A DNA stretch of 53,970 nucleotides from Pyrinomonadaceae bacterium (GTDB lineage Bacteria; Acidobacteriota; Blastocatellia; Pyrinomonadales; Pyrinomonadaceae): assembly GCA_035577445.1 (NCBI GenBank), contig DATLVM010000223.1:1-53970 (forward strand), written 5' to 3'. The translations under genes and the position numbers were made by a program. Positions 1 through 47,921 of this stretch are shown in pieces. The first letter of the stretch is position 1; every line of letters begins with the position of its first letter. The notes beneath the pieces were generated by a model that was given only the letters and a program-made list of their open reading frames with translations, was not told the origin of the DNA and did not search any database.

Positions 1-446
1 AACAGCGATTGAGCCGTAAAGCCATTGCATCGAACGTCCGTATTTCTGTAATCTATCCAGCCGAAGAGTGCTTCGTCTCCGTCGACATTAACCAGATCGC
101 ACGGATCTTCTCGAATCTTTTCACCAATTCACGTGACGCCATAAACGAGCGTAGGAACGCGGATGCAAGCTTCACCGAGGGCCTCATAGAAGTATCTGCT
201 TACGCTGATGGTGCGAGTGTGAACTTTACTTGGACGGACAACGGCTGCGGCATTCCTAAGGAGGATAGTCAGAGGATATTTGATGCATTTTTCACAAAGA
301 AGCAAGGCGATATCGGCTCCGGGCTTGGACTTCACATCATCAAGACGATCGTGGAAGCCCACAGCGGTCAGATTAGAGTAAGTCCAAAGCCTGGAAAGGG
401 GGCTCATTTCTGTATGACTCTTCCGCTCACAAGCGCCAGCCCTTAA
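1..446 (+). CDS. sensor histidine kinase, C-terminal fragment (HATPase_c domain); 5' end lies outside the window
   Basis: The frame is open from the window edge. Motifs: N-box-like NLFTNSRDAI, G1 DNGCGIP, G2 GSGLGLHIIK. Clearly paralogous to the C-terminus of the 967..4128 kinase. Confidence 0.85.
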   Translation, partial: QRLSRKAIASNVRISVIYPAEECFVSVDINQIARIFSNLFTNSRDAINERRNADASFTEGLIEVSAYADGASVNFTWTDNGCGIPKEDSQRIFDAFFTKKQGDIGSGLGLHIIKTIVEAHSGQIRVSPKPGKGAHFCMTLPLTSASP

Positions 447-487
447 CGAAGGCACAACATTGAAATCGATTAAGGAGAATTGGTCTC

Positions 488-964
488 TTGCTCCACAGCA
501 ACCACACACGTTCTTTCCCTCTCTTTCTGTCGGCGCACAAGCCCATAGTCTCCGGTGGCGCCATCGCAGGGGATGACGAACTCATACTCATCAAAGCGAA
601 AAGACTTAAGATCCTGCTCATTGATGATCGGTCCGACTACAGGGCCGGCCTGAGTTTCATGTTAACGCAGAAGTATGAGGCTGAGGTTACCGATGTCGCT
701 TCCGGGTCGGAGGCAATCAAGAATCTTAGAGCAGGCAGAGTCTTCGACCTTATCTTTATAGACATTAGGATGTCGCCGATGAACGGCTTCGACACCTACT
801 TGAACCTAAGGACGATCGACCCGGAAGTCCCAATGGTTATGATGTCCGCTCACGCAGGAGATGAAGAACTTGAAAGGGCAGAGCGTTTGGGCGTTGAATT
901 ATTGCACAAACCGATACTCGACGAGACCATAACAGATCTGTTAATGCGAATAGAAAGCAGATAG
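488..964 (+). CDS. stand-alone response-regulator receiver (CheY-like) protein
   Basis: Motifs: LKILLIDDRS acidic pocket, FDLIFIDIRMSP phospho-acceptor Asp, VMMSAH, LHKP Lys. There is no output domain. No in-frame ATG precedes the domain, so the start is uncertain (TTG at 488 in the ORF track). The stop lies 2 nt before the next ATG. Confidence 0.8.
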   Translation: MLHSNHTRSFPLFLSAHKPIVSGGAIAGDDELILIKAKRLKILLIDDRSDYRAGLSFMLTQKYEAEVTDVASGSEAIKNLRAGRVFDLIFIDIRMSPMNGFDTYLNLRTIDPEVPMVMMSAHAGDEELERAERLGVELLHKPILDETITDLLMRIESR

Positions 965-966
965 CC

Positions 967-3900
967 ATGAGCAAAAAGATCCTCATAGTTGAAGATGACG
1001 TTAAATTCCGGGACGCGCTCATGCTGATTCTTGAGGACCGAGACTATACGTTCCTCGAAGCGTCTTCTGTCCGTGAGGCGCTTGAATTGATCAGAAGCAA
1101 CCCGGACGTACGGGTCGTGCTTCTGGATTTGAACCTACCTGGGAAATCTGGGACCGAACTCCTCCGGGAACTCAAAGGACAAAATCCCCAGCATAGAGTG
1201 ATCGTTTTAACCGCTCACGAAGAGTTGCTCGCCGCGGAGCAAGCTAAGTCCTACCAAGTCTTTTCATATGCCGCGAAGGCAGGGACCTCGTTGCGCCAGT
1301 CGCTGCGTTTCCAGATTGAGCGTGCTTTCGAAGATCTGGAGAAGGCTTGGCTTTCAAACAAAATAGGAGCACATCTTGAGATAGAAAGAAGGATAGTTTT
1401 ACTGGGTGTCGATAATCGCGAGAATGCTGAAGTCGAATTGGCTGAAGTCTTGAATCTGATATGCGCGCGCGCGTTGGAAATAGTTAACGCGTACACGTGT
1501 CATATCCGTCTCTTCGATCCAGGCAGGGGCGACTTCGTTCTCTGGGCGAGCGAGGGAAGAGATGGCAACGTGCAGGGAATCTTTCAGGAACGTGTACGTC
1601 ATAATGAGCCCTATTCTGGTATTGTCGCCGAGACGAGAAAACCTCTTCCTATAGACGACTTACAGAGTGATCCGCCTTTCAAGGCGATGCTTCAAGCTGC
1701 AATGGAGGGTGAGCCCGATCCGCAATATCTCGAATATTTGAGTAACGCGCGATCCGCCTACGTTGTACCGATTTCCACTGGCATCGTTGGCAACGACATT
1801 GACGCCGTTTTTAATATAAACAGCGAGGAAGAAGGTTTTTTCTTAACAGAAGCAACCCGTGATCTTGTTCACGACTTCGTCACGCAGACAACCCTCGCCT
1901 ACACAAAGTATTTGCTACGGAAGAGGCGAATCGAGATCCATACTGATTATAAGAACATCAGCGCGATGCTTGAGGAAGTGACTGATGTACTCAAGGGTGA
2001 CTACAACCTAAATGAGATATACAAGATAGTTCTGAAACGACTTTCGGATGGACTCAAGCCCGAGATCATCTCCATTTTTCTTTTTAACGAGCTCTCCGGC
2101 CGTTTGAAGAACGTCGCTGAATTTCGTGCTGACACATGGGCGGACAATGTAGAACAAGAGTACTCACCTGGCGAGGGTATGATTGGGCGAATTTACTCGA
2201 GCAGGCAACCGGACAGGTTTATTACCGCGCTTCGGCGACACGTCGATGCGGACGTAAACAAGGCACTGGAGGAAGAGAAAATTGGGAATATCCCTAGTGG
2301 TGATTTACGTCACTATCTCGGCGTACCAATGAAGATTGGCGATGTCATGATTGGAGTCATAAGGGCAATTAACAAAAGGTCCGACTATTACAGCGGGGAA
2401 CCTGAGAAAACCAGCAGCATTTGCCTTCTTAAGGGCGGTTTCAGCGATGACTGTCAACTTGAACTCGAAATGGCTGCGAGCCACCTCGCCGTCGCGATTA
2501 GGAACGCCGAGCTGTTTGCTCAGATTAATAAGAGAGTAAGCCGCCTCAAAGCGGTGGAAGAGGTCGGCAAAAGAATAGGCGCTGAGATGGACGCCCGAGC
2601 TCTGCAAAATATTATTGTCACCTCGGCCGCTGAGTTTTTGCATGCCGAGATCTGCATGCTTTTGTTAACAAACGAGTGGGAGGACGGGATCATCCTCAAA
2701 CAAAGCTATGGAATGCCAGTCACGGATGTCGAAGATATGCATTACGACATCGGCGAAGGCAAGACGGGGACGGTTGCAAAAACGTGGAGCCCAATTTTGG
2801 AGACAGAGGCTGAAGAGCATAGCGGCAAATATGATGACAGGATCATACGCTTTTTGCGGGACAAACATGGAAGTGAAACCGCTAACATAAGATCTTTTAT
2901 GGCTGTTCCCATAATCGGAGAAGGCCGTATTTTGGGCGTAATCAAAGTTATCAATAAGTTAGAGCCACCTTATCAGTTTGATGCTGACGACCTTGAGCTG
3001 TTTCAGATGTTCGCAAGCCAACTAGCGCTGGTAAGATTCCTCTACACGTCATATAGTTATCAGAAAAATATTGTCGACAATTCGCCCGACCCGATCATCT
3101 TTCTTGATAAGGAAGGTAGAGTTGAGGTTTTCAACAAAGCCTGTGAGCAACTCTGGGGATACCGTGCGGCGGAGGTGCTGGAACAATCTGTTGTTGGCCT
3201 GTATGTGTCTGCCGCGCAGGCGCGTAGAATAGGTAGGATGTTGTCAGAAAGCGCCGACCACCGCATTTACAATCTTGAGGAGGAAATCAAGACCAAAGAC
3301 GGGGAAATCATACCGGTGGCCCTGTCGGCCGCTTTCTTATTCGACGAGCGGGGTAATAAGACTGGTAGCATGGGTAACTTCAAGGATCTTCGAGAAATAA
3401 AGAAATTGCAGGATCAGGTGTTGAGAGCTCAAAGAGATGCGGTGGTAGGAAAGTTGGCGTCGACGATCGGGCATGACATCAAACATGATATCGGTGCGGC
3501 CTTGAACTATATTGGCCCGCTACTTCGTAAGTGTGATCCAAAGAAACAGCAGAGGCTTCACGAGATTTATGCGGACATAGACAAAACGCTCCGTGAAGCG
3601 ACTACCAAACTCAAGAACGTATTTGCCACGGTGCAACCTGAACCGCTCCTAAAAGAGACAACTTATGTTGGGCGAGTCTTTAATGAAGAAATAGTCGGCT
3701 CCATGCGCCGGCAAGCGAACGCGAAAGATATCGAGTTCATCCTTACGAGTCCAGACAACGAGCAAAAACTGTCTGTGGATATCAAGCAGATAGAGAATGT
3801 TCTTTGGAATCTATTTGATAATTCGATTGACGCTATTGATAAGAGGGCTTCAGGCCGTGATGGTAGTGAGAAAGGAAGAATAGAGGTTTCGGCCCAAGTC

Positions 3901-4128
3901 AAAGGCCATGCTCTAGAACTTTCGTGGAAAGATAATGGCTGCGGAATATCGAAAGATAAAATGCCCTTCATTTTTGTACCATTTTGGACTGACAAAAAGG
4001 ACGGCAACGGGGTGGGGTTGTACATACTGAAAAGCAACATCGAGAGCCACCTTGGGACCGTGTCGGTAGATTCAACGGCGGGGGAAGGGGCCACGTTCCT
4101 TGTCACTATCCCGATCGCGGAGGATTAA
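967..4128 (+). CDS. hybrid sensor histidine kinase: receiver + 3 GAF-like + PAS + HisKA + HATPase_c
   Basis: N-terminal REC (ILIVEDD, VVLLDLNLPG, VIVLTAH). Three GAF-like blocks (YSGIVAETRKP; GEGMIGRIYSSRQP..LGVPMKIGDVMIGVIRAINK; GEGKTGTVAKTW..MAVPIIGEGRILGVIKVINK). PAS (SPDPIIFLDKEGRVEVFNKACEQLWGY). H-box STIGHDIKHD. N/G boxes NLFDNSIDAI, DNGCGIS, GNGVGLYILK. Confidence 0.9.
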   Translation: MSKKILIVEDDVKFRDALMLILEDRDYTFLEASSVREALELIRSNPDVRVVLLDLNLPGKSGTELLRELKGQNPQHRVIVLTAHEELLAAEQAKSYQVFSYAAKAGTSLRQSLRFQIERAFEDLEKAWLSNKIGAHLEIERRIVLLGVDNRENAEVELAEVLNLICARALEIVNAYTCHIRLFDPGRGDFVLWASEGRDGNVQGIFQERVRHNEPYSGIVAETRKPLPIDDLQSDPPFKAMLQAAMEGEPDPQYLEYLSNARSAYVVPISTGIVGNDIDAVFNINSEEEGFFLTEATRDLVHDFVTQTTLAYTKYLLRKRRIEIHTDYKNISAMLEEVTDVLKGDYNLNEIYKIVLKRLSDGLKPEIISIFLFNELSGRLKNVAEFRADTWADNVEQEYSPGEGMIGRIYSSRQPDRFITALRRHVDADVNKALEEEKIGNIPSGDLRHYLGVPMKIGDVMIGVIRAINKRSDYYSGEPEKTSSICLLKGGFSDDCQLELEMAASHLAVAIRNAELFAQINKRVSRLKAVEEVGKRIGAEMDARALQNIIVTSAAEFLHAEICMLLLTNEWEDGIILKQSYGMPVTDVEDMHYDIGEGKTGTVAKTWSPILETEAEEHSGKYDDRIIRFLRDKHGSETANIRSFMAVPIIGEGRILGVIKVINKLEPPYQFDADDLELFQMFASQLALVRFLYTSYSYQKNIVDNSPDPIIFLDKEGRVEVFNKACEQLWGYRAAEVLEQSVVGLYVSAAQARRIGRMLSESADHRIYNLEEEIKTKDGEIIPVALSAAFLFDERGNKTGSMGNFKDLREIKKLQDQVLRAQRDAVVGKLASTIGHDIKHDIGAALNYIGPLLRKCDPKKQQRLHEIYADIDKTLREATTKLKNVFATVQPEPLLKETTYVGRVFNEEIVGSMRRQANAKDIEFILTSPDNEQKLSVDIKQIENVLWNLFDNSIDAIDKRASGRDGSEKGRIEVSAQVKGHALELSWKDNGCGISKDKMPFIFVPFWTDKKDGNGVGLYILKSNIESHLGTVSVDSTAGEGATFLVTIPIAED

Positions 4129-4174
4129 AGAACTTATGCGAACTTCGGCGCCTAGATTGAATAGGAGAGGAAAT

Positions 4175-4600
4175 ATGCGTCCTAGCAGTCTTTCGAAACC
4201 GCGTAGTGTCCAGATCGATACGGCCAACGCGATCAGAGCCAGGCACCTCAAGGTGATGATTGTTGACGATGAGGCCGTATGGAGACGATCCATGAGATTC
4301 AGACTCATGAGTCTTTATGATCTTGAAGTTAAGGATGTCGGCTCAGGTGACGAGGCCTTGCGGACAATCACTTCCGGCGAAAGATTTGACCTCATTTTCC
4401 TTGATCTTTCGATGCCCGAGATGAGTGGGACACAGGCCTTCGAGAGACTAAGAGATATCGATCCTAACTGTGCAGTAGTCATGATGTCAGCGTATTCGGA
4501 CGGCGAGGAATGGGCTAAGGCAAAACAGCTCAATGTACAAGTGCTTTCTAAGCCTATCATGGACGACGAGCTGGAGAAGGTACTTCTTGAGGTCCCCTAG
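4175..4600 (+). CDS. stand-alone response-regulator receiver (CheY-like) protein
   Basis: ATG at 4175 is preceded by AGGAGAGG. The ORF-track start at 4100 overlaps the kinase and lacks an RBS. Motifs: VMIVDDE, FDLIFLDLSMPE, VMMSAY, LSKP. Paralog of 488..964. Confidence 0.85.
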   Translation: MRPSSLSKPRSVQIDTANAIRARHLKVMIVDDEAVWRRSMRFRLMSLYDLEVKDVGSGDEALRTITSGERFDLIFLDLSMPEMSGTQAFERLRDIDPNCAVVMMSAYSDGEEWAKAKQLNVQVLSKPIMDDELEKVLLEVP

Positions 4601-4685
4601 CAAGTAAACTGACGCTATTTTAGCAACTTAACATTTTAATCTATACAAGCTCTTTTTCGTTTGCCCTGAAGTCTTTCGAGAAGCG

Positions 4686-6443
4686 ATGAAGCGACCCCTC
4701 ATCTTCTTGAGTTACAGCCATAAGGACGAGGTTGAAAAGGACAGGCTGCTGTCCCATGTTCGCGCTGCCCTACAACCCGATATCGCGAATATCTTTAGCG
4801 ACGACAGTCTGGGAGCAGGCGTCGATTGGCAGCAGAACATAGGCAACGCCATCGAGGAGGCGAAGGTGGCCATCCTTCTGGTCACAGCCGATTTCCTCAC
4901 CTCTAACTTTATTATACACACCGAGGTTAAGGCATTTCTTGAGCGTCGCGAGAAGGAAGGTTTGCGGGTTTTCCCTGTGATTGCCAAGGCATGTCCTTGG
5001 AAGAAAGTAGAGTGGCTTAAGGCAATGAACTTAAGGCCACGAAATGGCAGGCCCATCTGGGGCGACGCAGGAACGCATGTCGAAGAAGACCTAGCTGCGA
5101 TTGCAGAAGAAGTCGCTGACATCATCGAACAAGAAAGGATAGAGATAATCAAGCGAGAGAATCACGCAGACAGTTCAACGCAAAGCAAAACCGAGATTCA
5201 TATTGATAAACCTCAGCGACTACCCAGGATTCTATTGGTGGATGATAAAGCCCTTTTCCGCAGGTCCGTCGCATATAACTTGGAAGACCTTGTTACGGTA
5301 ATGGAAGCTGGTTCAGTCGCGGAAGCGATCAAGGTACTTGAGACTAATCAAGATGTGCGGCTCATCTTACTTGATTTGGAACTAGATCGAGGTGAGGACG
5401 GCACTATGGTGCTTGAACACATTAAAGATCGGGCTTCGGATTATCGGGTCATCGTCCTAACCGGGCATCATGAAAGGCTCGCAGCGGAGAAGGCGTCATC
5501 CTATAAGATATTTAGGTATCTCCCGAAGGCGCAAGACGATGCCCCGAGAGAGATTTTGCGGTTCAATGTCGAGGAGGCACTAACCGATCTAAAGCGCGGA
5601 ATTGCGCCGATGGAGCGGGCGTTCGGCGAAGAAACTGTAAAACTGTACCCCAGCCCTTTCATCCACCTTTTTCAGTATTTGAAAAGTGACATTCGGCCCG
5701 GCGAGGCACTCTCTGGCCAAAAAGCCATGCTGGAACTTTTGTTGAACTTCTCCGCTATAGCTTTGCTCTGCGACTACCTGTACGGGGACACAAGGGATAA
5801 TGAACTAGACGCCCAAATCCGGAAAAGACTTTACAAACCGTCTCTTGGTGACTGGTTCAATATCATTAATGAAATAGTGAAGCGGAAGAACTCTTTCAAT
5901 GACACGCTTTTTTTGAATTCATTTCTAATCTTCTATACAGGTAGAAACAAAAAGAACCTGAATGAGTTAATCAGTGTGAGAAACAAATACGTAGGCCACG
6001 GCTCGATGCAGAAGGACTTTGAAGCAGAGAAGGTGGTCAAGCAATGCGATGACCTTTTGGTGGGTTTGTTGCGTGATTATCAGATTATTACCGATTTCCT
6101 CATGTGTTATACGCTCAATGTTGAAAAGCTTAGAACTGGATACGTGTACAGCTTGAAAGAATGCACAGGAGCAAATCATCAATTACTAAACTCCAAGAGA
6201 AGCTTCAACTTTCTTCTGGACGCCCACGAAATGCATCTGGTGAACCTCAAGACAGAACATTACCAAAGCCTCCACCCTTTCATAATCCTGGAGAATTGTT
6301 CTGAGTGTAGGCAACCGGAAGTATTCTTTTATTCCAAATTTTCGAATGGACAATTGTATTATCTGAGTTATACATGTGGGCACTGGTTGATAAAGGAAGA
6401 GTCGGAGAAGGATTTCCTTCAATTGCTAAGAATGGATTCTTAG
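4686..6443 (+). CDS. TIR domain - receiver domain - uncharacterised C-terminal domain (HEPN-like R-x5-H motif, Cys/His cluster) protein
   Basis: N-terminal TIR_2-like region: IFLSYSHKDE ... AILLVTADFLTSNFIIHTEV, retaining the S-x2-F-x5-E glutamate position. Central REC: ILLVDDK, LILLDLELDRGEDG, VIVLTGH, YLPKA. C-terminus: SVRNKYVGHG and CSEC...YTCGHW. Confidence 0.8.
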   Translation: MKRPLIFLSYSHKDEVEKDRLLSHVRAALQPDIANIFSDDSLGAGVDWQQNIGNAIEEAKVAILLVTADFLTSNFIIHTEVKAFLERREKEGLRVFPVIAKACPWKKVEWLKAMNLRPRNGRPIWGDAGTHVEEDLAAIAEEVADIIEQERIEIIKRENHADSSTQSKTEIHIDKPQRLPRILLVDDKALFRRSVAYNLEDLVTVMEAGSVAEAIKVLETNQDVRLILLDLELDRGEDGTMVLEHIKDRASDYRVIVLTGHHERLAAEKASSYKIFRYLPKAQDDAPREILRFNVEEALTDLKRGIAPMERAFGEETVKLYPSPFIHLFQYLKSDIRPGEALSGQKAMLELLLNFSAIALLCDYLYGDTRDNELDAQIRKRLYKPSLGDWFNIINEIVKRKNSFNDTLFLNSFLIFYTGRNKKNLNELISVRNKYVGHGSMQKDFEAEKVVKQCDDLLVGLLRDYQIITDFLMCYTLNVEKLRTGYVYSLKECTGANHQLLNSKRSFNFLLDAHEMHLVNLKTEHYQSLHPFIILENCSECRQPEVFFYSKFSNGQLYYLSYTCGHWLIKEESEKDFLQLLRMDS

Positions 6444-6757
6444 AGGCGTTGCCTTGAAAGTCGTCTCGAAACCTAGCCGCGCTCGGTCAAGAAAGAACCA
6501 CATCCTACGACAGTTCTTCTCGAATGATGCATTCGGACGAGCAAAAGTAAACTTTCTTGTCTATGTTTGACCCCGGTGTTAATCTGAGCGCGTTTAGAAA
6601 CAACGACTGGCGCTTCGCCCACTCACATTTGTAAAGCCACTGGCGCGCCATCATGCCGTCAGATCCGAACTTTTTCAAAACAGGAGCGAACCATCTCCAG
6701 GATCGAGTAGTAGGTATGCCTAACGTGTCGCACTCGATACTTATTTGAACATTTTAG

Positions 6758-7705
6758 ATGTGCGCGGCCGGAGGACTTATGGAAATCATTCTTCGCGCCC
6801 TTCAAGAACTTTGGCGACTATTCTCCTCAAAAGTCTGGAAACCCTTCAGGGACACCTTTATCGGATCCATAGAGATGCTCTGGCTGGCGAAGTGTATGGC
6901 CTACGTTGTTTTGTGGAGTATGAAGCAAACAACTCGGCGCATTTTGGATGCCTCGGGAATCGTGCTTCTCTTTTCCAGCCTACATTTCATGCTTGAGTCT
7001 ATCTCTACTGTGTTCCACGCTGAGTTGTTCAGCGTCACGAAGACAGTAGGAGTCCAAGGAGCGGTCATATTTGTGGCAGGTTGGATGGTCTTCCATAACC
7101 TCAGAGAACTAAGGGCGCGCCGGCGAAAGTCCGTTGTCGTAACCAATCTGGCGATGTTGCTGCAAGAGTTAGGGGGCACAGACTTGGCGGTAGGAGATGC
7201 AAATGTCAGAGAGCAAAAGTTGAATAAATTTGTTACCAAAGCGTCCGTTGCATGTATGAGTAGTTTCGACAAGAAGCTTTGCGTTAAGATGAGTATAATG
7301 TTACCGAGCGACACTGACGGTAAGCTGCGAATCCGTTTCTATGCTGAAGACGCCGGCTACGATACGGATTTCGCATTGGCAAAAGGGGACGGTGCTGCCG
7401 GTAAAGCATATGAAAACAACCACGCCGTCTATGTCCCAGCCGTCAAACAGAGACAGGGTATTACAATATCGTTTCCTGTGAAAAAGTACGGTTTGGCGCC
7501 AAACGTATATTCTCAAGCGAAAGTGGAGCCCTATCAGTCAATTCTCAGCGTCCCTATTCCGACGTTGAATTCAGAAATCCATGACGTTCAGGGTATCTTA
7601 AACCTTGACTCAATCAAGAGAGACGCCTTTACAAGCAGTGATGTCGAGACTGCCCACGCCTTCGCCAGCGCCGTCGGTTTGGCGCTTGACATTCACAAAT
7701 CCTAA
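6758..7705 (+). CDS. membrane-anchored GAF-like domain protein
   Basis: Two to three hydrophobic N-terminal segments (MLWLAKCMAYVVLWSM, GIVLLFSSLHFMLESI, GAVIFVAGWMVFH). The C-terminal half has a GAF-like pattern (GAAGKAYENNHAVYVPAV ... ILSVPIP ... VQGILNLDS). An alternative ATG lies at 6779. Confidence 0.6.
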   Translation: MCAAGGLMEIILRALQELWRLFSSKVWKPFRDTFIGSIEMLWLAKCMAYVVLWSMKQTTRRILDASGIVLLFSSLHFMLESISTVFHAELFSVTKTVGVQGAVIFVAGWMVFHNLRELRARRRKSVVVTNLAMLLQELGGTDLAVGDANVREQKLNKFVTKASVACMSSFDKKLCVKMSIMLPSDTDGKLRIRFYAEDAGYDTDFALAKGDGAAGKAYENNHAVYVPAVKQRQGITISFPVKKYGLAPNVYSQAKVEPYQSILSVPIPTLNSEIHDVQGILNLDSIKRDAFTSSDVETAHAFASAVGLALDIHKS

Positions 7706-7749
7706 GCCTAGAATTCGGCTGGTTTTAGCACCCACATCGGAGGGGGCTT

Positions 7750-7983
7750 ATGAGTGACAAAGTAATGAACTATGGCCTGCAAAACCCTGTAGGGGTTGGG
7801 TATGCAGTTCCTCCAGCAAATGAGTATTCAACATCCCCACCAGGATCTGTAGAAGACTTTTCTGCCCGAATCAATGCATCCATAGAGTCTGCTTGGAGTC
7901 CGCAAAGCGAGACTACTCTTCGCGGTTTTGTTGGGGCCGTAGTCAAGGTCGCCAAAGAGGGGATAAAACAAAGCGAAAAGTAA
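7750..7983 (+). CDS. small hypothetical protein (77 aa)
   Basis: ATG is preceded by a strong SD (GGAGGGGG). It is followed by an intrinsic terminator at 8042..8080. No recognisable motif. Confidence 0.5.
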   Translation: MSDKVMNYGLQNPVGVGYAVPPANEYSTSPPGSVEDFSARINASIESAWSPQSETTLRGFVGAVVKVAKEGIKQSEK

Positions 7984-8041
7984 CAAGAGCAAGCTTTAAC
8001 GAGTAATAGTAGCTTGCGGTCTGATATCGCCATTTTCATAA

Positions 8042-8080
8042 GACCCGCGCTGGTGATGTGTTCACCGCGCGGGTCGTTTT
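8042..8080 (+). terminator. rho-independent terminator
   Basis: Perfect 9-bp stem: GACCCGCGC (8042-8050) pairs with GCGCGGGTC (8067-8075). It is followed by GTTTT. Confidence 0.6.
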
Positions 8081-8434
8081 GATTCCCTACGACAATAGTC
8101 CCGTCGCGTCTACGCCAACCGCCCAATTTAGCCGCTTGAGTAGCGGTAACTATGATGGAAACCAGGGAAAAGTTCACCAACTATGAGAATCCAGAATCAA
8201 TAACTTTGAGAAAGTGCCCGTAAGTTGTTGTACCCTCGTCAACCAGATTTCAATAACTATGAGAACCTAGAAATAATAATGTCGGTTCTCAAAGTTAGTG
8301 ATATCCGCACCATAGTTAGAGATATCCTTCTCGTCGTTAGCGATTCCGTGGTGTTGAGTCGGCCAAAAAATTAATCTCAGCCGAGGTTTTTCGCAGACGT
8401 GCGGAAAGAAATCACGCAAGCCAGAAAGGAAACG

Positions 8435-9508
8435 ATGTCAACCACAATAAGTCCAGATTCAGCTCCTACGATTAGCTCTCTCAGTCCGGGAAACGGCCCA
8501 GTAACTGGTGGAACGACCGTAACAATTAAAGGTCAGAATTTCGTGTCAGAATGCAAAGTGACTTTCGGCAAGGCGGAAGCGCAAATCAAAATCTTCCGCA
8601 GTAGCCAATTGTCCGTAATTACGCCGCCGCAGTCGACCACTGGAGAATTTGATGTGACGGTCGTCAATCCGGGCGGGCAACATGGCACATTGAAAAATGG
8701 TTTTGTTTACCAGGTCCCGCCGCCCCCGGTGATCGGCTCGATTAACCCGACACATGGACCTCAAGGCGGGGGAACGCAAACAACAATCTCGGGCCAGAAT
8801 TTCGTAAACGGATGCAAAGCGGTGTTCGGTGGCATGGAAGCGCCCGTGGTTTTCGTGAGCAGCACGCAACTCTCTGTTATTACACCGCAGCAGACAAGTG
8901 CGGGAGTGGTTAAGGTGGAGGTGGTGAATCCCGACCTGCAAGCCGGAGTGTTGCCGAGTGCTTTTCAGTACGATCCGCCGCCGATCATCCTTGAATTGGT
9001 CCCCAACAGCGGACCGGTGGCTGGCGGGACGCAAGTAACCATTCAGGGGCAGAACTTTGCAGCAAAATGCAAAGCGATTTTCGGCAGAGATGAAGCCGCA
9101 ACGACTTTCAATTCCGCTAACCAGCTATCCGCCATCACCCCGGCACAAAAGAACGCGGGATCGGTTAGTGTGAAAGTGGTTAATCCGGACGGGCAATCGG
9201 CAGTCATTCCGAATAGTTTTCAATATGAGAACCCACCGGCGCCCGCGCCCGTGATCACCTCAATCAACCCAAGCAGCGGAACCTTTGGGACAATAGTGAC
9301 CATTCGAGGGGAAAACTTCGAATACCCATGCACGGTATTATTCGGCAAGGTTCTGACCATCGCACCGCCACCCCGCAACGGCTCCGAATTGGAAGTGAGC
9401 GTACCGGGGCAGCGAACCGCCGGACCGGTCGATGTAACGGTAATCAATCCGGGTGGGGAGTCCAGCACCTTGCCGAATGCTTTTCAGTACAACGAGGACG
9501 ATACGTAA
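8435..9508 (+). CDS. IPT/TIG repeat protein (four tandem ~90-aa Ig-like repeats)
   Basis: Four repeats of the pattern I-x-S-(L/I)-x-P-x-x-G-P-x-x-GGT-x-V/T-TI-x-GQNF ... C-K-x-x-FG ... L-S-(V/A)-ITP ... V-x-V-VNP. ATG at 8435 lies after AAAGGAAAC; the GTG at 8399 in the ORF track is less likely. Confidence 0.8.
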   Translation: MSTTISPDSAPTISSLSPGNGPVTGGTTVTIKGQNFVSECKVTFGKAEAQIKIFRSSQLSVITPPQSTTGEFDVTVVNPGGQHGTLKNGFVYQVPPPPVIGSINPTHGPQGGGTQTTISGQNFVNGCKAVFGGMEAPVVFVSSTQLSVITPQQTSAGVVKVEVVNPDLQAGVLPSAFQYDPPPIILELVPNSGPVAGGTQVTIQGQNFAAKCKAIFGRDEAATTFNSANQLSAITPAQKNAGSVSVKVVNPDGQSAVIPNSFQYENPPAPAPVITSINPSSGTFGTIVTIRGENFEYPCTVLFGKVLTIAPPPRNGSELEVSVPGQRTAGPVDVTVINPGGESSTLPNAFQYNEDDT

Positions 9509-9738
9509 CGGCGTTCGCTCCAGATTCTTCACATTCTCGCAACACTTCTGACGCCAGCCGTTAGTATGCCAGGCTTTACAATGCTCGCGCAGAGCTATCT
9601 TAATTCCCCTTTTTCATCGCCCCTCCACACAAACTGAAGCCGAGGCTTTTGTCGTCTGAACTTGCAACGTTGTTCCGCGAATCTCGCTGACGAGTAATGT
9701 TGCCGCAGCGGCCGAATCCGCGCGCAGAGGCAAGAAAC

Positions 9739-10167
9739 ATGAACAATCGGACGCTGGCGTATGCGCTCGCGCGAATCGCTTACGGAATAACCTTTCTTTT
9801 TTACGGCATCGGGAAATTCAGAGGCGGTCTTTCGAATTTTGTCGGCGGCATGAATCAACAGTTCTCTGGCAAATTGCCGGCCGCGATGGTCATGCCGTTT
9901 GCCTATTTCATTCCGTTTGCCGAGACGATTTCCGGTGCGCTGATTTTGCTCGGTTTGTTTACTCGCGTGGGACTCACACTCTCTGGCGTCTTGCTGATTG
10001 GTTTGACGTTTGGCCTCGTCATACTGGGGCAAGCGCAAATCGTAGCTCACAACCTGCAATACATTCTGCTGAATTTTGTGCTGCTGTGGTTTGTCGACTT
10101 CAATTCGATTTCGATTGATTCATTGATTAGCAAACGACCCGCCGTGGGGTTTACACGTTCGGCATAG
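9739..10167 (+). CDS. DoxX family membrane protein
   Basis: Four hydrophobic helices. N-terminus LARIAYGITFLFYGIGKF is typical of DoxX. ATG at 9739 is chosen over the upstream ORF-track start. Confidence 0.7.
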   Translation: MNNRTLAYALARIAYGITFLFYGIGKFRGGLSNFVGGMNQQFSGKLPAAMVMPFAYFIPFAETISGALILLGLFTRVGLTLSGVLLIGLTFGLVILGQAQIVAHNLQYILLNFVLLWFVDFNSISIDSLISKRPAVGFTRSA

Positions 10168-10190: not shown

Positions 10191-10850
10191 ATGAGATTCA
10201 GAGTCTGCGTTCTGCCGTTATTGCTTTCTAGTCTGGTCGCTCTCATAGCTTCACCGAATCCCACGACTTCCGCGCGAGCTAGTAATGCACAACCTGCGGG
10301 TACGACTCGCTATCGCCTCGATCCATCGCAGAGTAAATTCGTCGCGCATGCTCTGCCCGGTGGCTTGCTCTGGTTCAAGGGTCACGATCATTTGGTGGCA
10401 GCGCGCGAGTTTAGCGGCGAAGCCGAATTGACCACCGACACCATCAATCCTGCGTCACTGTTGTTGGTCGTCAAGTCCGATTCTATGGGTGAGACAAACG
10501 CGGTCTTCACCGATCAGCAGAAACAGATCATCGACAAAGAGCTGCGCGAGATAGTTTTGTTGCCGGCGCGATATCCGGACATCACGTTCAAGAGCACGGA
10601 GGTGAAGGGCAAACCCGGGAGCAATGAGTACGATTTGAAAATCGGTGGTGACTTAACCTTGCTCGGCGTGACACGTCATATCGAAATCCCCACGCACGTG
10701 ACAATCAGCGGAAATGATTTGCGCGCGCGCGGCGAGTTCTCGATCGACCGCTCCGACTTCAAAGTGAAAGCCACTTCCGCCTTTCACGGCATGATTCGTG
10801 TCCGCAATAAGATCAAATTCAGTTTCGATATAGTCGGTCATCAAATTTAA
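10191..10850 (+). CDS. YceI-like periplasmic protein
   Basis: Signal peptide present. YceI-like pattern: YRLDPSQSKFVAHA ... YPDITFKSTEV ... GDLTLLGVTRHIEIP ... FSIDRSDFKV. DoxX-YceI adjacency is common. Confidence 0.75.
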   Translation: MRFRVCVLPLLLSSLVALIASPNPTTSARASNAQPAGTTRYRLDPSQSKFVAHALPGGLLWFKGHDHLVAAREFSGEAELTTDTINPASLLLVVKSDSMGETNAVFTDQQKQIIDKELREIVLLPARYPDITFKSTEVKGKPGSNEYDLKIGGDLTLLGVTRHIEIPTHVTISGNDLRARGEFSIDRSDFKVKATSAFHGMIRVRNKIKFSFDIVGHQI

Positions 10851-23977: not shown

Positions 23978-25294
23978 CTATGCTTCGGCCATTGCCGGGT
24001 CGCTCGTCGCCAACGGCGCAGTCACCGATTCACGCACGCGTTCGATATCGCCGCCAACAGCTCTTAGCTTCGTTTCGATTTTCTCGTAGCCGCGATCGAT
24101 GTGATACACGCGGTCGATAATTGTTTCACCTTCGGCTACTAAACCGGCCAGCACTAACGAAGCTGAGGCGCGCAGATCGGAAGCCTGCACGCGCGCGCCG
24201 ACCAGCGCGCTCGGCCCATCAACGATCGCCTTATCGTGAGTGACTTGAACGCGCGCGCCCATGCGTTGCAACTCAGAGGCGTGCATAAAACGATTCTCAA
24301 AAACAGTTTCCGTGATGACTGATCGGCCGTTGGCCTGCGTCATCAAAGTCATGTACTGGGCCTGCATATCAGTCGGAAAAGCTGGGTACGGTTCCGTCAT
24401 CAGGTCGCCGGCGTGTAATCCGCGGGCGCTGCGGCGAACATGCAGAGTGCTTTGATTTACTTCTTCGATCTCCACGCCCACTTCTCGCAGCTTCCCGATG
24501 ATTCGATTGCAGTGTTCCGGATTGCAGTCTTTGATTTCGAGTTCGCCTTTCGTAATTGCGGCGGCGACAATGAATGTTCCGGTTTCGATTCGATCCGGGA
24601 TGATCGTGTGCTGCGCGCCGCCCAAAGCTTCCATGCCATCAATTTCGATCTTCGGGGTGCCGGCGCCACGCACGCGCGCGCCCATCTTGTTGAGCAACTC
24701 CGCGAGATCTTTTACTTCCGGCTCGCGCGCAGCGTTATTGATGACGGTACGTCCGCGCGCCAGCGTCGCCGCCATCATCAAGTTTTCTGTTCCGGTAACA
24801 GAAATCTTTTCGAAAGTAATGTCCGCGCCCTTCAATCCGTCTTCAGGCGCGCGGGCAACGACGTCACCGGCTTCGAGAAAGACTTCGGCGCCCATTTTTG
24901 TTAATCCCGCGAGATGCAAATCGATCGGACGGGCGCCGATCGCGCAACCGCCTGGCAGCGAAACTCTCGCTTTACCGAAGCGAGCAATCAGCGGCCCAAG
25001 GGCGAGCACCGACGCGCGCATCGTCTTTACCAGGTCATAAGGAGCAGCCTGCAGCTCGATGTGAGCGGCCGAGATCTTGTGTGTGCGCAACTCCGGCGTC
25101 AGCACATGCGCGCCAATGTCTTCGAGCAAACGGCGCATCGTGATGATGTCCCGCACGTAAGGAATGTTGTGCAGCGTGACATCTTCAGCGGTGAGAATCG
25201 CTGCAGCCATACAAGGCAGCGCTGAGTTCTTAGCGCCGCTGATCGTGACGCGACCTTTAAGCGGATTGCCACCGCTGATGCGAAATTTGTCCAC
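23978..25294 (-). CDS. murA: UDP-N-acetylglucosamine 1-carboxyvinyltransferase
   Basis: N-terminus MDKFRISGG..L.G.V.ISGAKNSALP. Active-site loop LPGGCAIGARPIDLH with Cys. Confidence 0.95.
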   Translation of the reverse strand: MDKFRISGGNPLKGRVTISGAKNSALPCMAAAILTAEDVTLHNIPYVRDIITMRRLLEDIGAHVLTPELRTHKISAAHIELQAAPYDLVKTMRASVLALGPLIARFGKARVSLPGGCAIGARPIDLHLAGLTKMGAEVFLEAGDVVARAPEDGLKGADITFEKISVTGTENLMMAATLARGRTVINNAAREPEVKDLAELLNKMGARVRGAGTPKIEIDGMEALGGAQHTIIPDRIETGTFIVAAAITKGELEIKDCNPEHCNRIIGKLREVGVEIEEVNQSTLHVRRSARGLHAGDLMTEPYPAFPTDMQAQYMTLMTQANGRSVITETVFENRFMHASELQRMGARVQVTHDKAIVDGPSALVGARVQASDLRASASLVLAGLVAEGETIIDRVYHIDRGYEKIETKLRAVGGDIERVRESVTAPLATSDPAMAEA

Positions 25295-27797: not shown

Positions 27798-29165
27798 TCA
27801 CCTTTCAACTACTGATTCAAGCAGTTCGAAAAACTCCGGAAACGAAACGGCAACGCATTCAGCGCCGGCAATTTCCGTCTCGCCTTCGGCCAACAAGCCG
27901 GCCACGGCAAAGGCCATCGCGATGCGATGATCGCCGCGCGGATCAATCTTCGCGCCGCGAAGTTTCATCAGCCCATTGACGCGCAGTCCATCCTCGAACT
28001 CTTCTACTTGCGCTCCCATCGCGCGCAGATTCTCGACGGTCGTTGAAATGCGATCTGATTCCTTGACGCGCAACTCTCTCGCGTCGCGAATCTCGATGCC
28101 GCCTTCGATTTGCGATCCGAACACGGCGATCAACGGCAGCTCGTCAATCAGTTTCGGAATCGCGAGACCGTTCACAGTCAGCGTTGAATCGATGCGGTCA
28201 GAAATTCGCACCTCTTTCCCTGTGACTCGAACCGAACCGACTGGCTCATTGCTTTGCACGCCCAGGTCATCAATCACAACGTTGCTGCCAAGCTGTTGCA
28301 GCGTCTCGATAAATGCCGCGCGCGTTTCGTTAAGCCCGACGCGGTTAACTTCTAAGAATGATTCTGGCAGCAACGCAGCCGCCGCAATGAAATAAGCCGC
28401 CGAAGAAATGTCACCCGGCACGTCAACATCGCACGCATGCAATTGCGCCCGACCGTCGAGAGATGCAAACCGCGCGTTTTCAGGTTCACGCTCTGGCTTT
28501 CCTGTTTCGATGTTCGCGCCGAACAGCTTCAGCATGCGTTCGGTGTGATCGCGCGTGGCTTCGTTTTCGATCACTGTCGTTTTGCCTTCAGCGGGCAGCC
28601 CGCCGAGGAGAATGCATGATTTCACCTGGGCGCTCGCGACCAGCAACTCGTAATTGATCGCCTTCAATCGTTTGCTGCCGCGAATCGTCAGAGGCGCGCG
28701 CCCGTCGTTTGAAGAAATGTTCGCCCCCATCATTTCCAGCGGCTCGATGATCCTCTGCATCGGACGTGAGCGCAGCGATTCATCGCCTGTCAAAGTCGCC
28801 TCGAAATCGCATCCTGCTAAAATCCCTGCCAGCAGGCGCATCGTTGTGCCGCTGTTGCCGCAATCCAGCGGCGCGTCCGGCGCACGCAATCCGCCAGGGC
28901 CAACACCATAGATCGTCACATCATTCCCGGTCCCTTCAATTCGCACACCGAGCTGCCGCAGACACGAAAGCGTCGCCGCGCAATCAGCGCTCGTCGAATA
29001 ATTTGTGACGTGCGACGCACCGTCAGCGAGCGCGGCAATCATCGCGGCGCGATGGGAAATCGATTTATCGCCCGGCACGCGGATGCGACCGCGAATACGT
29101 TTTGCTGCTTGGACAATCACTAAGTGAATCTTACCTTCGTGAGTAACCATAACGATAGCCGACAA
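27798..29165 (-). CDS. aroA: 3-phosphoshikimate 1-carboxyvinyltransferase (EPSP synthase)
   Basis: Motifs: VPGDKSISHR, LDCGNSGTTMRLLAGIL, and a C-terminal RGDHRIAMAF. An alternative start lies at 29150. Confidence 0.95.
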   Translation of the reverse strand: MSAIVMVTHEGKIHLVIVQAAKRIRGRIRVPGDKSISHRAAMIAALADGASHVTNYSTSADCAATLSCLRQLGVRIEGTGNDVTIYGVGPGGLRAPDAPLDCGNSGTTMRLLAGILAGCDFEATLTGDESLRSRPMQRIIEPLEMMGANISSNDGRAPLTIRGSKRLKAINYELLVASAQVKSCILLGGLPAEGKTTVIENEATRDHTERMLKLFGANIETGKPEREPENARFASLDGRAQLHACDVDVPGDISSAAYFIAAAALLPESFLEVNRVGLNETRAAFIETLQQLGSNVVIDDLGVQSNEPVGSVRVTGKEVRISDRIDSTLTVNGLAIPKLIDELPLIAVFGSQIEGGIEIRDARELRVKESDRISTTVENLRAMGAQVEEFEDGLRVNGLMKLRGAKIDPRGDHRIAMAFAVAGLLAEGETEIAGAECVAVSFPEFFELLESVVER

Positions 29166-35336: not shown

Positions 35337-36344
35337 CTACGCGGCTCGAAACAAATTACTGCTGAATCGCTTGCCTTTGTCCAACCACTGATGCTCCAGT
35401 TTGAAACCGGACTGCGTCCCTAATTCTCGCAAGCCTTGTAAGTCAAACTTGTAGGAGTTTTCCATGTGAATTCGCTCGCCCATCTTGAATTCAACTGATG
35501 AGTTGAGTTCACGGATGTCGACCGTCTGATCGCGCAGGCTCTCGAGATAGACTTCCACCCGTCCGGCTGATTCGTTGTAAGCAGAGCGCAAACCGAACGC
35601 CCACAGATCGATGTTGGCTCCCAGTTCGCGATTGATGCGCGCGAGTTCGTTGACGATGAACGCACGCGTTACCCCCAGCGGGTCATTGTAAGCAGCCTCA
35701 AGCACCGCCGCGTCCTTTTTCAAATCCGCGCCCAGCAGAAGCGCATCGCCTTTGCGCAAAACTTTCCGGATGGCGCGGAGGAAGCGCAAGGCATCATCTG
35801 GCTCGAAGTTGCCGATGTTCGATCCGAGAAACAGAACGAGCGCAGGCTCCGATCCAGCTAGTTTCAACGCATCCAACGCCTGAAAGTAATCGGCCGCGTA
35901 GGCTTCGATTTGCAGCGCGGGATATGAAACCAGCAGCGCATGAGAACTTTCTTCGAGCGCCGACGCGGAAATATCCACGGGAACAAACAGCAGATCGGCC
36001 TGGCGCCGGAAAAATGCGTCGATGACTTTGCGCGTCTTTTCAGCGCTGCCGCTACCCAGTTCGATCAGTGTGTGACAATCGGGCGTCGCAGAGACGATAT
36101 CATCAGCGTGATTCGTAAGGATCTCGTCTTCGGATCTGGTCAAATAATATTCATCAACTTCACAGATCGCTTCGAACAAGCGAGAGCCTAACTCGTCGTA
36201 GAGATACTTCGGGAAGAGCTGCTTCGGCGTGGAAGACAGCCCGCGCTGAACATCGCGCGCGAAGTCCGCGTGCCCATTCCGCTGCGCCAGATCGTGAATG
36301 ATGAGGCGCGACTCCCAACCCTCTGATTTGAGTGCGGCGACCAA
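35337..36344 (-). CDS. egtD: EgtD-like SAM-dependent histidine N-alpha-methyltransferase family protein
   Basis: PKYLYDELGSRLFEAICEVDEYYLTRSE, ELGSGS and FLGSNIGNF are typical of the EgtD / Methyltransf_33 family. The start codon is non-ATG in the ORF track and is uncertain. Confidence 0.7.
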   Translation of the reverse strand: MVAALKSEGWESRLIIHDLAQRNGHADFARDVQRGLSSTPKQLFPKYLYDELGSRLFEAICEVDEYYLTRSEDEILTNHADDIVSATPDCHTLIELGSGSAEKTRKVIDAFFRRQADLLFVPVDISASALEESSHALLVSYPALQIEAYAADYFQALDALKLAGSEPALVLFLGSNIGNFEPDDALRFLRAIRKVLRKGDALLLGADLKKDAAVLEAAYNDPLGVTRAFIVNELARINRELGANIDLWAFGLRSAYNESAGRVEVYLESLRDQTVDIRELNSSVEFKMGERIHMENSYKFDLQGLRELGTQSGFKLEHQWLDKGKRFSSNLFRAA

Positions 36345-46603: not shown

Positions 46604-46645
46604 TCCGGGAATTATAGGCAAGCCACCACTTGGTAAGGACGAACA

Positions 46646-47842: not shown

Positions 47843-47921
47843 CCATGAACTCTTGACTCCTGATAAGACTGCTTATCAGGTTCACAAGAGTTCGCGCCGA
47901 AGTGAACAAGGAGAATGTGAT

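What the first reader, a model, noticed from the sequence alone, without database searches (positions are those of the whole stretch)
967..6443. Detocs-like layout: kinase / receiver-only protein / receiver-fused TIR effector
Seen in sequence: a hybrid kinase (REC + 3 GAF + PAS + HK) is followed by a receiver-only protein and then a protein with a receiver domain between a TIR domain and an unknown C-terminal domain. The receiver of the TIR protein is most similar to the receiver at the N-terminus of the kinase: RVIVLTAHEELLAAEQAKSYQVFSY versus RVIVLTGHHERLAAEKASSYKIFRY, and VVLLDLNLPG versus LILLDLELDR. Established knowledge (from memory): the anti-phage Detocs system consists of a sensor kinase, a receiver-only buffer protein and a receiver-effector protein, the effector usually being a PNP-type nucleosidase. 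TIR domains are NAD-consuming or signal-producing immune modules. Inference: this locus could be a Detocs-like defensive phosphorelay. Its sensor differs (GAF/PAS instead of TPR), its effector differs (TIR plus a possible HEPN), and the TIR-REC domain order is unusual. I do not know of a described system with this composition.
Basis: partly seen in the sequence, partly recalled or inferred. Interest (0 to 1): 0.8.

Follow-up and report, generated by a model that had tools for sequence, protein, structure and literature searches.

The report
Two-component cassette driving a TIR effector
A conserved five-gene set of two sensor kinases and receiver proteins in soil Acidobacteria ends in a protein that joins an immune-type TIR domain and a second, unnamed defence-linked domain to a phosphorylation switch, so it probably works like the anti-phage Detocs system without being related to it.

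Summary
At 967-6443 there is a REC-GAF-GAF-PAS histidine kinase, a receiver-only protein, and a 585-aa protein with TIR, receiver and an unknown C-terminal domain ("X"). The unit is larger than reported. It is a five-gene cassette (kinase / receiver / hybrid kinase / receiver / TIR-REC-X), and the window's left edge cuts its first kinase. Five other loci carry all five genes, and three short contigs carry the last three. A sister branch of the family (six loci) pairs the effector with a different, membrane kinase. Full-length relatives were found only in Pyrinomonadaceae/Acidobacteria assemblies.

The phospho-acceptor residues and a TIR glutamate are invariant. X gives a confident model with no match to any solved or viral structure, and it carries an HEPN-type RNx4-5H motif and a CxxC...H site. 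It occurs in at least 1,380 protein clusters: as the output of plain response regulators, at the N-terminus of NACHT/AAA_16 STAND proteins, and in extra genes inside type I restriction operons.

Bona fide Detocs proteins score strongly on PADLOC's PDC-M60 models, while the window's receivers score only at generic level. My reading is that it is Detocs-like in logic, is not a Detocs member, and is probably a phosphorylation-gated dual effector. The defence role is inferred, not shown.

The parts
3..446 (+). C-terminal end (ATP-binding domain) of the first kinase, HK1. The window's left edge cuts the gene.
   Evidence: HATPase_c 2.2e-24. The frame is open from base 3. It is 56% identical to residues 745-886 of the 889-aa GAF-PAS kinase that opens the cassette in L002. 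The N, G1 and G2 boxes are visible in the translation.
488..964 (+). REC1, a stand-alone receiver protein
   Evidence: Response_reg 4.5e-19. It is 40.5% identical to REC2. A gene occupies the same position in L001, L002, L003, L007 and L089.
967..4128 (+). HK2, a cytoplasmic hybrid histidine kinase: REC, a GAF-like region, two GAF domains, PAS, a His-box region and the ATPase domain
   Evidence: Pfam domains. H-box ...STIGHDIKHDIG..., N box NLFDNSIDA, G1 DNGCGI and G2 GNGVGL are visible in the translation. No hydrophobic segment. Orthologues are 42-64% identical in L001-L003, L007 and L089.
4175..4600 (+). REC2, a stand-alone receiver protein. The ORF is open from 4100, and the ATG at 4175 fits the length of homologues.
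   Evidence: Response_reg 4.3e-21. Translation. Homologues of 143 aa sit in the same position.
4686..5135 (+). TIR domain of the effector protein (residues 1-150). The invariant glutamate E80 is at 4923-4925.
   Evidence: TIR_2 44.9 bits and TIR 25.8 bits. ThsB-type TIR 7.6e-21. S73, F75, I76 and E80 are invariant in 24 family members. Coordinates checked.
5220..5585 (+). Receiver domain of the effector protein (residues ~179-300). The phospho-acceptor D230 is at 5373-5375.
   Evidence: Response_reg 4.9e-14. D230, T259 and K281 are invariant. It is 45.8% identical to the N-terminal receiver of HK2. Foldseek gives TM 0.8-0.87 to CheY-like structures. Coordinates checked.
5619..6443 (+). Domain X (residues 312-585): a helical bundle carrying RNKYVGH (5979-5999), followed by a beta-rich part with CSEC (6297-6308) and H566
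   Evidence: The domain-only model has pLDDT 90.3 and pTM 0.90. No structural match at E<0.001 in PDB or BFVD. No Pfam, NCBIfam or PDB sequence match. A profile finds 1,380 clusters at E<=1e-3. Motif coordinates checked.

Best explanation
The locus is a five-gene, same-strand, tightly spaced cassette. It encodes two cytoplasmic GAF/PAS histidine kinases, each followed by a stand-alone receiver, and ends in a response regulator with two output domains.

**Proposed mechanism (inferred)**
1. The kinases autophosphorylate when their GAF/PAS modules detect an intracellular cue.
2. Phosphate passes to D230 of the effector's receiver. It also passes to the closely related receiver at the N-terminus of HK2, which would couple the two kinases.
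3. Receiver phosphorylation drives dimerisation or oligomerisation. Both TIR NADases and HEPN-type RNases need this to form active sites.
4. The TIR then consumes or converts NAD+, and domain X (an HEPN-like, zinc-binding output module) acts on nucleic acid. The cell is arrested or killed.
5. With no Hpt domain in the cassette, the two stand-alone receivers most likely act as phosphate sinks that set an activation threshold, as proposed for DtcB.

**What is shown:** the domains, the conserved catalytic and acceptor residues, the conserved gene linkage, and the defence-type company kept by both the TIR subfamily and X.

**What is inferred:** the signal, the phosphotransfer routes, both enzymatic activities, and the biological role in conflict or defence.
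For: **Gene linkage**
- Five other loci carry all five genes (L001, L002, L003, L007, L089).
- Three short contigs carry the last three genes (L090, L091, L095).
- Six loci of a sister type carry TIR-REC-X (split into two genes in L096) + TM-kinase + REC protein + a 230-aa protein (L004, L005, L008, L009, L093, L096).
- L089 adds a second REC-TIR gene right after the effector.
- More distant GAF-kinase + REC-X and GAF-kinase + TIR-REC pairs occur in L086 and L014.

**Conserved residues**
- TIR E80 and receiver D230, T259 and K281 are invariant.
- Kinase motifs are intact.

**Domain X behaves as an output domain**
- It is C-terminal to REC in 11 of 70 mid-sized proteins and is also fused to cNMP-binding domains.
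- Among the 20 large proteins, 11 match AAA_16 and 8 match NACHT, and X lies at the N-terminus, just before the Walker A motif, in many of them.
- It is fused to N6_Mtase, Methylase_S, Eco57I, PD-T4-6-like kinases and Macro.
- It is carried by extra genes inside complete type I R-M operons.
- R-N-x3-4-H is conserved at >=90% for R and N across diverse members.

**Company kept by the TIR subfamily**
- Its nearest relatives are the N-terminal TIRs of AAA_16/NACHT-TPR, SIR2_2, WD40 and PNP proteins.

**The Detocs precedent**
- His, Asp and effector mutants abolish defence, and a DtcB Asp mutant is toxic (10.1101/2023.01.24.525353).
Against: - No defence phenotype or biochemistry exists for any member.
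- In the window, L001 and L002 the cassette lies beside the same housekeeping genes (O-methyltransferase, B12-radical SAM, PrmC, trypsin-PDZ protease, EPSP synthase). Its divergence (48-64%) is comparable to theirs (52-85%). This looks like vertical inheritance in one lineage, not a mobile defence island.
- No homologue was found in viral contigs, and no known defence system was seen next to it in the window.
- X has no significant structural or profile match to HEPN. The best is HepT at TM 0.36-0.38, E 0.6-1, and Pfam AbiU2 in 3 of 24 members at E 0.004.
- Type-B members have lost the R-N/H motif.
- E80 sits one residue away from the position that a weak alignment pairs with the catalytic Glu of plant RUN1.
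Confidence: 0.5

Rival explanations
1. It is a lineage-specific physiological signalling network with no defence role. The two GAF/PAS kinases integrate metabolic or redox/nucleotide cues. The TIR-REC-X regulator adjusts NAD+ levels or makes an NAD-derived signal, for example to enter dormancy or respond to starvation in oligotrophic soil Acidobacteria.
For: - The chromosomal position next to housekeeping genes is conserved in three genomes, and divergence is similar to the neighbours.
- Taxonomic range is narrow: full-length matches come only from Pyrinomonadaceae/Acidobacteria assemblies.
- It is absent from viral contigs.
- Multi-kinase, multi-receiver layouts with GAF/PAS inputs are typical of housekeeping signalling.
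- The sensors are not hypervariable: HK2 is 42-64% identical and the effector 42-61%.
Against: - Both output domains keep defence-type company: STAND NTPases, SIR2, R-M operons, PD-T4-6-like kinases.
- The cassette's G+C is 5-8 points below its flanks in the window, L001 and L007.
- Some relatives lie near integrases, TIR-WD40 or CHAT-TPR genes.
Confidence: 0.27
2. X is a nucleic-acid-binding (regulatory) output domain, so the protein is an unusual transcription or RNA-binding response regulator. The TIR serves only as a protein-interaction module.
For: - X has a CxxC...H element that weakly resembles a TFIIS/RPB9 zinc ribbon (JGI label of P0019).
- N-terminal output domains of STAND regulators such as AfsR are DNA-binding domains (established knowledge).
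- Type-B members lack the R-N/H motif yet keep X.
Against: - The TIR keeps an invariant glutamate and the SxF/Ix3E helix.
- X is embedded in R-M operons and fused to methylase/specificity modules, protein kinases and Macro. These positions are usually filled by toxic effectors.
- No HTH or known DNA-binding fold was detected.
Confidence: 0.12
3. It is a true, divergent member of the Detocs family (DtcA/DtcB/DtcC homologues).
For: It has the same three functional roles. The receivers score weakly on the DtcB-type model PDC-M60B (19-23 bits).
Against: - Genuine DtcB and DtcC score 62-96 and 66-216 bits on the same models.
- There is no match to the M60A or M60C models.
- The sensor is GAF/PAS, not TPR.
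- BLASTP shows only generic receiver similarity.
Confidence: 0.04

Closest known systems
Detocs (DtcA/DtcB/DtcC; Rousset et al., bioRxiv 10.1101/2023.01.24.525353)
   Same: A histidine kinase, a receiver-only protein and a receiver fused to a cell-arresting effector are encoded together. The effector is presumably switched on by Asp phosphorylation, and the free receiver probably buffers stray phosphate.
   Different: - There is no sequence relatedness beyond the generic receiver fold.
- The sensors are cytoplasmic GAF/PAS, not TPR.
- There are two kinases and four receivers instead of one kinase and two receivers.
- The effector has two output domains (TIR + X) flanking the receiver, instead of REC followed by PNP, hydrolase, REase or TOPRIM.
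- It is found in Acidobacteria, in a conserved chromosomal position.
- No experimental evidence exists.
Thoeris ThsB and other bacterial TIR effectors
   Same: The TIR domain matches the ThsB-type profile (7.6e-21) and keeps an invariant glutamate in the expected helix.
   Different: No ThsA-type partner (SIR2 or Macro-SLOG) is nearby. The TIR is fused to a receiver domain, so its trigger would be phosphorylation and not direct phage sensing.
HEPN abortive-infection RNases linked to restriction systems (PrrC/RloC, DUF4145 and AbiU2 families; Anantharaman et al. 2013, PMC3710099)
   Same: X has an R-N-x3-4-H motif between the last two long helices of a helical bundle. X-bearing genes sit inside type I R-M operons. 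X is fused to many conflict-type domains.
   Different: There is no significant profile or fold match to any HEPN family. X carries an additional ~110-residue beta domain with a CxxC...H site. Membership is therefore unproven.
Bacterial NLR-like STAND proteins (Avs/bNACHT) with N-terminal effector domains
   Same: Both the TIR subfamily and X occur at the N-terminus of AAA_16/NACHT-TPR/WD40 proteins. The domains are therefore shared parts of that toolkit.
   Different: Here the switch is a phospho-receiver fed by kinases, not a STAND NTPase.

Membership tests
Detocs | DtcA: histidine kinase with an N-terminal TPR sensor, matching the DtcA profile | tested here: not met
   The kinases carry GAF and PAS domains and no TPR. 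There is no PDC-M60A match in PADLOC.
Detocs | DtcB: a receiver-only protein encoded in the operon | tested here: met
   There are two such genes, at 488-964 and 4175-4600. Each has the Asp, Ser and Lys of an active receiver.
Detocs | Sequence membership of the receivers and effector in the DtcB/DtcC profiles | tested here: not met
   Control: real DtcB scores 62-96 bits on PDC-M60B and real DtcC 66-216 bits on PDC-M60C. The window proteins score 19-23 bits on M60B only. BLASTP shows only generic similarity.
Detocs | DtcC: N-terminal receiver followed by a toxic effector domain | tested here: inconclusive
   The receiver is followed by domain X, whose activity is unknown, and preceded by a TIR. 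The order differs from DtcC.
Detocs | Phage defence that depends on the kinase His, the receiver Asp and the effector active site | not testable with these tools
   This needs cloning and phage assays.
TIR NADase / signal-producing effectors (Thoeris ThsB-like) | TIR fold and profile match | tested here: met
   PF13676 scores 44.9 bits (cut-off 28) and PF01582 25.8 bits (cut-off 21.3). ThsB 7.6e-21. The full-length model pairs with the TIR-bearing plant NLR RPP1 in Foldseek; that alignment spans the whole model.
TIR NADase / signal-producing effectors (Thoeris ThsB-like) | Catalytic glutamate | tested here: inconclusive
   E80 is invariant in 24 members. In a weak alignment to RUN1 it lies one residue after the catalytic Glu position.
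TIR NADase / signal-producing effectors (Thoeris ThsB-like) | A partner ThsA (SIR2 or Macro with SLOG) encoded nearby | tested here: not met
   No such domain was found in the ORFs scanned within 1-12 kb of the window or in the homologous loci.
HEPN superfamily | Rx4-6H motif | tested here: met
   RNKYVGH at residues 432-438. R and N are >=90% conserved across diverse X domains, with spacing of 4 or 5. The motif is lost in type-B members.
HEPN superfamily | Significant profile or fold similarity to a known HEPN family | tested here: not met
   Pfam finds only AbiU2, in 3 of 24 members, best E 0.004. PDB profile searches are empty. The best Foldseek HEPN hit is HepT at E 0.6-1, TM 0.36-0.38.
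Classical multi-step phosphorelay (His-Asp-His-Asp) | An Hpt phosphotransfer domain | tested here: not met
   No Hpt family appears among the Pfam hits of any cassette protein. The free receivers are therefore more likely sinks than shuttles.

The most novel reading that the evidence does not exclude
Domain X is an unnamed, widespread effector family (at least 1,380 clusters at 50% identity). It would be an HEPN-like nuclease with a zinc-binding beta domain that bacteria plug into three kinds of switch: phospho-receivers, NLR-like STAND NTPases and restriction-modification operons. This cassette would then be the prototype of a phosphorelay-gated immune effector that fires two weapons at once, TIR NAD+ cleavage and X. 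A more speculative extension is that the GAF domains of the kinases read a nucleotide made by the TIR, closing a feedback loop.
Probability: 0.25. Interest if true: 0.8.

Novelty: new variant of a known kind. Interest (0 to 1): 0.62.

Why it matters
Detocs showed that two-component signalling can itself be an immune system. This locus suggests the idea arose independently, with other sensors (GAF/PAS), a more elaborate circuit (two kinases, four receivers) and other weapons (TIR plus X). It does so in a phylum, Acidobacteriota, whose defence repertoire is barely explored.

It also flags domain X as a large family without annotation. X sits in the effector slot of NLR-like proteins and inside restriction operons, so it is a concrete target for biochemical discovery. 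If the cassette proves to be physiological instead, it would be a rare case of a bacterial TIR enzyme under direct phosphorylation control.

Tried and rejected
- **Structure and profile searches for X** gave nothing significant: Foldseek against PDB and BFVD, Pfam, NCBIfam, and PDB sequence profiles built from both a narrow and a broad alignment. The HEPN label therefore stays a hypothesis.
- **The full-length model** only recovered CheY-like and plant NLR TIR structures.
- **A second word-indexed protein search with X** returned only close relatives.
- **Viral contigs:** no relative found.
- **Literature searches** for TIR/receiver or HEPN/receiver regulators found no description of this architecture. 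The Aravind-lab papers mention receivers in conflict systems only without kinases.
- **The downstream gene at 6758-7705** (weak GAF) was considered as a sixth component and rejected, because it is absent from all homologous loci.
- **Promoter and terminator scans** were uninformative.
- **Predicting which kinase serves which receiver** by covariation was not attempted, because about 9 loci are too few.
- **Detocs membership** was rejected after the positive-control scan.


Full report
**1. What is in the sequence**

The first 6.4 kb of the window carries five ORFs on the + strand, with gaps of 2 to 85 bases.
- **3-446:** the C-terminal ATPase domain of a histidine kinase (HATPase_c 2.2e-24). 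Its frame is open to the window edge. It aligns at 56% identity to residues 745-886 of an 889-aa GAF-PAS kinase in a related locus.
- **488-964:** a receiver-only protein.
- **967-4128:** a 1053-aa hybrid kinase with Response_reg, two GAF stretches, PAS and HATPase_c. Its H, N, G1 and G2 boxes are recognisable and it has no hydrophobic segment.
- **4175-4600** (ORF open from 4100): a second receiver-only protein.
- **4686-6443:** a 585-aa protein with TIR_2 (44.9 bits against a cut-off of 28), Response_reg (4.9e-14) and 274 C-terminal residues with no family. PADLOC matches its N-terminus to the ThsB-type TIR model at 7.6e-21.

A 315-base gap follows. The next gene (6758-7705) has no counterpart in related loci.

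However, its coordinates capture only the last three genes of a five-gene unit. The third GAF domain is also not supported: two pass thresholds, and region 130-335 is GAF-like at best.

**2. The receivers fall into two classes**

The receiver of the TIR protein and the N-terminal receiver of the hybrid kinase are 45.8% identical (E 1e-29). The two stand-alone receivers are 40.5% identical to each other. Cross-class identities are 24-31%.

All four keep the acidic pair, the acceptor Asp, the Thr/Ser and the Lys. The same relation between the effector receiver and the HK2 receiver holds in every related locus (40-50% identity). The second kinase resembles the first over its GAF-PAS-kinase part (33-38% identity). 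The cassette therefore looks like a duplicated kinase-receiver pair. One kinase and the effector share a second receiver type.

**3. The family and its gene neighbourhoods**

A protein search found about 25 full-length relatives at 41-61% identity. In a scan of one genome per species, the full-length protein appeared only in four Pyrinomonadaceae/Acidobacteria assemblies; other hits matched only the TIR, or the TIR and receiver. A metagenome scan added seven loci. Two locus types emerge.

- **Type A** has the same five genes in the same order.
  - All five genes are present in L001, L002, L003, L007 (the same contig as L092) and L089.
  - The last three genes run up to the contig end in L090, L091 and L095.
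- **Type B** (L004, L005, L008, L009, L093, L096) has the effector followed by three genes:
  - a membrane-spanning HisKA kinase of about 560 aa;
  - a receiver protein with a C-terminal extension;
  - a conserved ~230-aa protein without a Pfam match.

Three further observations fit the same pattern.
- In L096/L097 the TIR (151 aa) and REC-X (437 aa) are separate adjacent genes.
- In L089 an extra 268-aa REC-TIR gene follows the effector.
- More distant examples pair GAF kinases with the same kinds of regulator: L086 has REC-DUF294 / GAF kinase / REC-X, and L014, from a Caldilineaceae assembly, has a GAF kinase followed by TIR-REC.

In every locus that retains flanking sequence on the side where the kinase genes lie, the effector sits next to kinase and receiver genes.

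**4. Conserved residues**

In 24 aligned family members:
- the TIR keeps S73, F75, I76 and E80 invariant;
- the receiver keeps D230, T259 and K281 invariant;
- the C-terminal domain keeps C538, C541 and H566 invariant, and H438 in at least 90%.

The R432-N433 pair is present in all but three aligned members (P0020-P0022). At least two of these (P0020, P0022) come from type-B loci, as does the related split-gene protein P0121, which also lacks the pair.

In a weak alignment to the plant TIR RUN1, E80 lies one residue after the catalytic glutamate position. Catalytic competence is therefore likely but not shown.

**5. The C-terminal domain X**

- **Structure.** Modelled alone with the family alignment, X gives a confident structure (pLDDT 90.3, pTM 0.90). 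A bundle of long helices is followed by a nine-stranded beta part. The RNKYVGH motif lies between the last two long helices, and the CxxC lies in a beta hairpin.
- **No known relative.** Foldseek finds nothing below E 0.001 in PDB or BFVD. The only suggestive hit is the HEPN toxin HepT, at TM 0.36-0.38 and E 0.6-1. Pfam, NCBIfam and PDB sequence profiles are silent, apart from AbiU2-HEPN in 3 of 24 members at E 0.004 and an insignificant RPB9 zinc-ribbon match.
- **Wide distribution.** A profile search of 1.84 billion representatives finds 1,380 proteins at E<=1e-3 and 358 at E<=1e-10.
- **Partners in 70 mid-sized proteins:** Response_reg (11), Methylase_S (9), N6_Mtase (8), TPR (7), squalene-cyclase-like toroids (6), ORC/CDC6-like (5), protein kinase (4), cNMP-binding (4), Eco57I (3) and Macro (2). 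The kinases among them match PD-T4-6 defence kinase models.
- **Partners in 20 large proteins:** 11 match AAA_16 and 8 match NACHT, with TPR or WD40 in several. X lies at the N-terminus, just before the Walker A motif, in many of them.
- **Genomic context.** Two X-bearing genes examined lie inside complete type I restriction operons, next to HsdM, HsdS and HsdR.
- **Family signature.** Across this diversity the signature is YPxPIA, RPxLGxW, RNx3-4H, CxxC and YLSYxxGH.

X is therefore a promiscuous output module of conflict-type proteins. The motif, its position and the R-M context resemble HEPN abortive-infection RNases (PMC3710099). Membership is not demonstrated.

**6. Why the TIR-REC order looks odd**

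REC-X proteins of about 400 aa are a family in their own right. The Pyrinomonadaceae branch has simply acquired a TIR at the N-terminus, and in one lineage the TIR remains a separate gene. The TIR itself belongs to a subfamily whose closest relatives (50-62% identity) are the N-terminal TIRs of AAA_16/NACHT-TPR, SIR2_2, WD40, FGE-sulfatase, kinase and PNP proteins.

**7. Comparison with Detocs**

The Detocs paper describes three proteins: DtcA (TPR + kinase), DtcB (receiver-only, proposed phosphate buffer) and DtcC (receiver + PNP). The alternative effectors listed are hydrolase/TM, REase and TOPRIM, not TIR.

As a control, I scanned the published DtcB and DtcC sequences against PADLOC. They hit PDC-M60B at 62-96 bits and PDC-M60C at 66-216 bits. 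The window's receivers reach 19-23 bits on M60B and nothing else. BLASTP shows only generic receiver similarity.

The locus therefore works like Detocs on paper, but it is not a member.

**8. Genomic context**

The window, L001 and L002 share the genes on one side of the cassette: O-methyltransferase, B12-radical SAM, PrmC, trypsin-PDZ protease and EPSP synthase. These are 52-85% identical, against 48-64% for the cassette proteins. This points to vertical inheritance in one lineage, probably Pyrinomonadaceae.

In contrast, the cassette's G+C is lower than its flanks in the window (0.48 against 0.555), L001 and L007. Its flanks differ in L003 and L007. Some relatives lie near integrases, TIR-WD40 or CHAT-TPR genes. 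No viral contig carries it. The context is thus ambiguous about a defence role.

**9. Mechanism and verdict**

The best-supported reading, at about 50%, is a phosphorylation-gated dual effector in a conflict system.
- The GAF/PAS kinases sense an intracellular cue.
- Phosphate reaches D230.
- Receiver-driven oligomerisation activates the TIR and X.
- The free receivers act as sinks, because no Hpt domain is present.

The dependence of TIR NADases and HEPN RNases on self-association is established knowledge. Its application here is inference.

The main rival, at about 27%, is a lineage-specific physiological signalling network that uses a TIR enzyme as output. In either case the composition appears undescribed in the literature searched. 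I rate it a new variant of a known kind, with interest of about 0.6. Much of that interest rests on domain X.

Noticed in passing
window 1-9000 versus 9600-45000: The cassette region has G+C of 0.47-0.50, against about 0.555 for the rest. The same dip is seen in L001 and L007 although the chromosomal position is conserved. This is unexplained; it could reflect old foreign origin or a composition bias.
   Followed up: partly
window 6758-7705 (+): A 315-aa protein with a weak, sub-threshold GAF match lies just downstream of the cassette. It is absent from all homologous loci, so it is probably not part of the system.
   Followed up: partly
window 8399-9508 (+): A protein made of four IPT/TIG repeats (8e-54), followed by small ORFs at 9697-10167 and 10191-10850 that were not characterised. 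This roughly 8-kb stretch separates the cassette from the O-methyltransferase gene, which is directly adjacent to the cassette in L002.
   Followed up: no
window 45416-51795 (+): A second low-G+C stretch (0.47-0.52) holds three consecutive ORFs of 395, 398 and 477 aa with no Pfam match; the first and third also have no PDB sequence match, and the second was not searched there. A 796-aa TPR protein follows. This may be another accessory island.
   Followed up: partly
window 23978-25294 and 27798-29165 (-): There are two EPSP_synthase-family genes 2.5 kb apart, presumably AroA and MurA, which share this Pfam family.
   Followed up: no
L089 10833-11639 (+): A 268-aa REC-TIR protein lies directly after the TIR-REC-X gene. 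Its receiver is 45-48% identical to the effector and HK2 receivers, so it would be a second TIR output on the same cassette. An ORF that looks integrase-like by eye (not checked against any profile) lies about 2.5 kb further on.
   Followed up: partly
L096 9420-11314 and L097: The TIR (151 aa) and REC-X (437 aa) are separate adjacent genes, seen in two samples. A phage-type integrase lies about 9 kb upstream.
   Followed up: partly
L004 7888-8580 and its counterparts in L005, L008, L009, L093: A conserved ~230-aa protein of type-B loci has no Pfam match. It contains ...FCGHG... and ...AFCSNAA... motifs that resemble a caspase/CHAT-like His-Cys dyad. This was judged by eye and is untested.
   Followed up: no
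L098 4837-7092 and L099 8001-10166: Genes that carry domain X fused to specificity-like or methylase-like modules are inserted in complete type I R-M operons. This arrangement recalls PrrC/RloC.
   Followed up: partly
window 35337-36344 (-): A histidine-specific SAM methyltransferase (Methyltransf_33, 1e-105), the EgtD type of ergothioneine synthesis.
   Followed up: no
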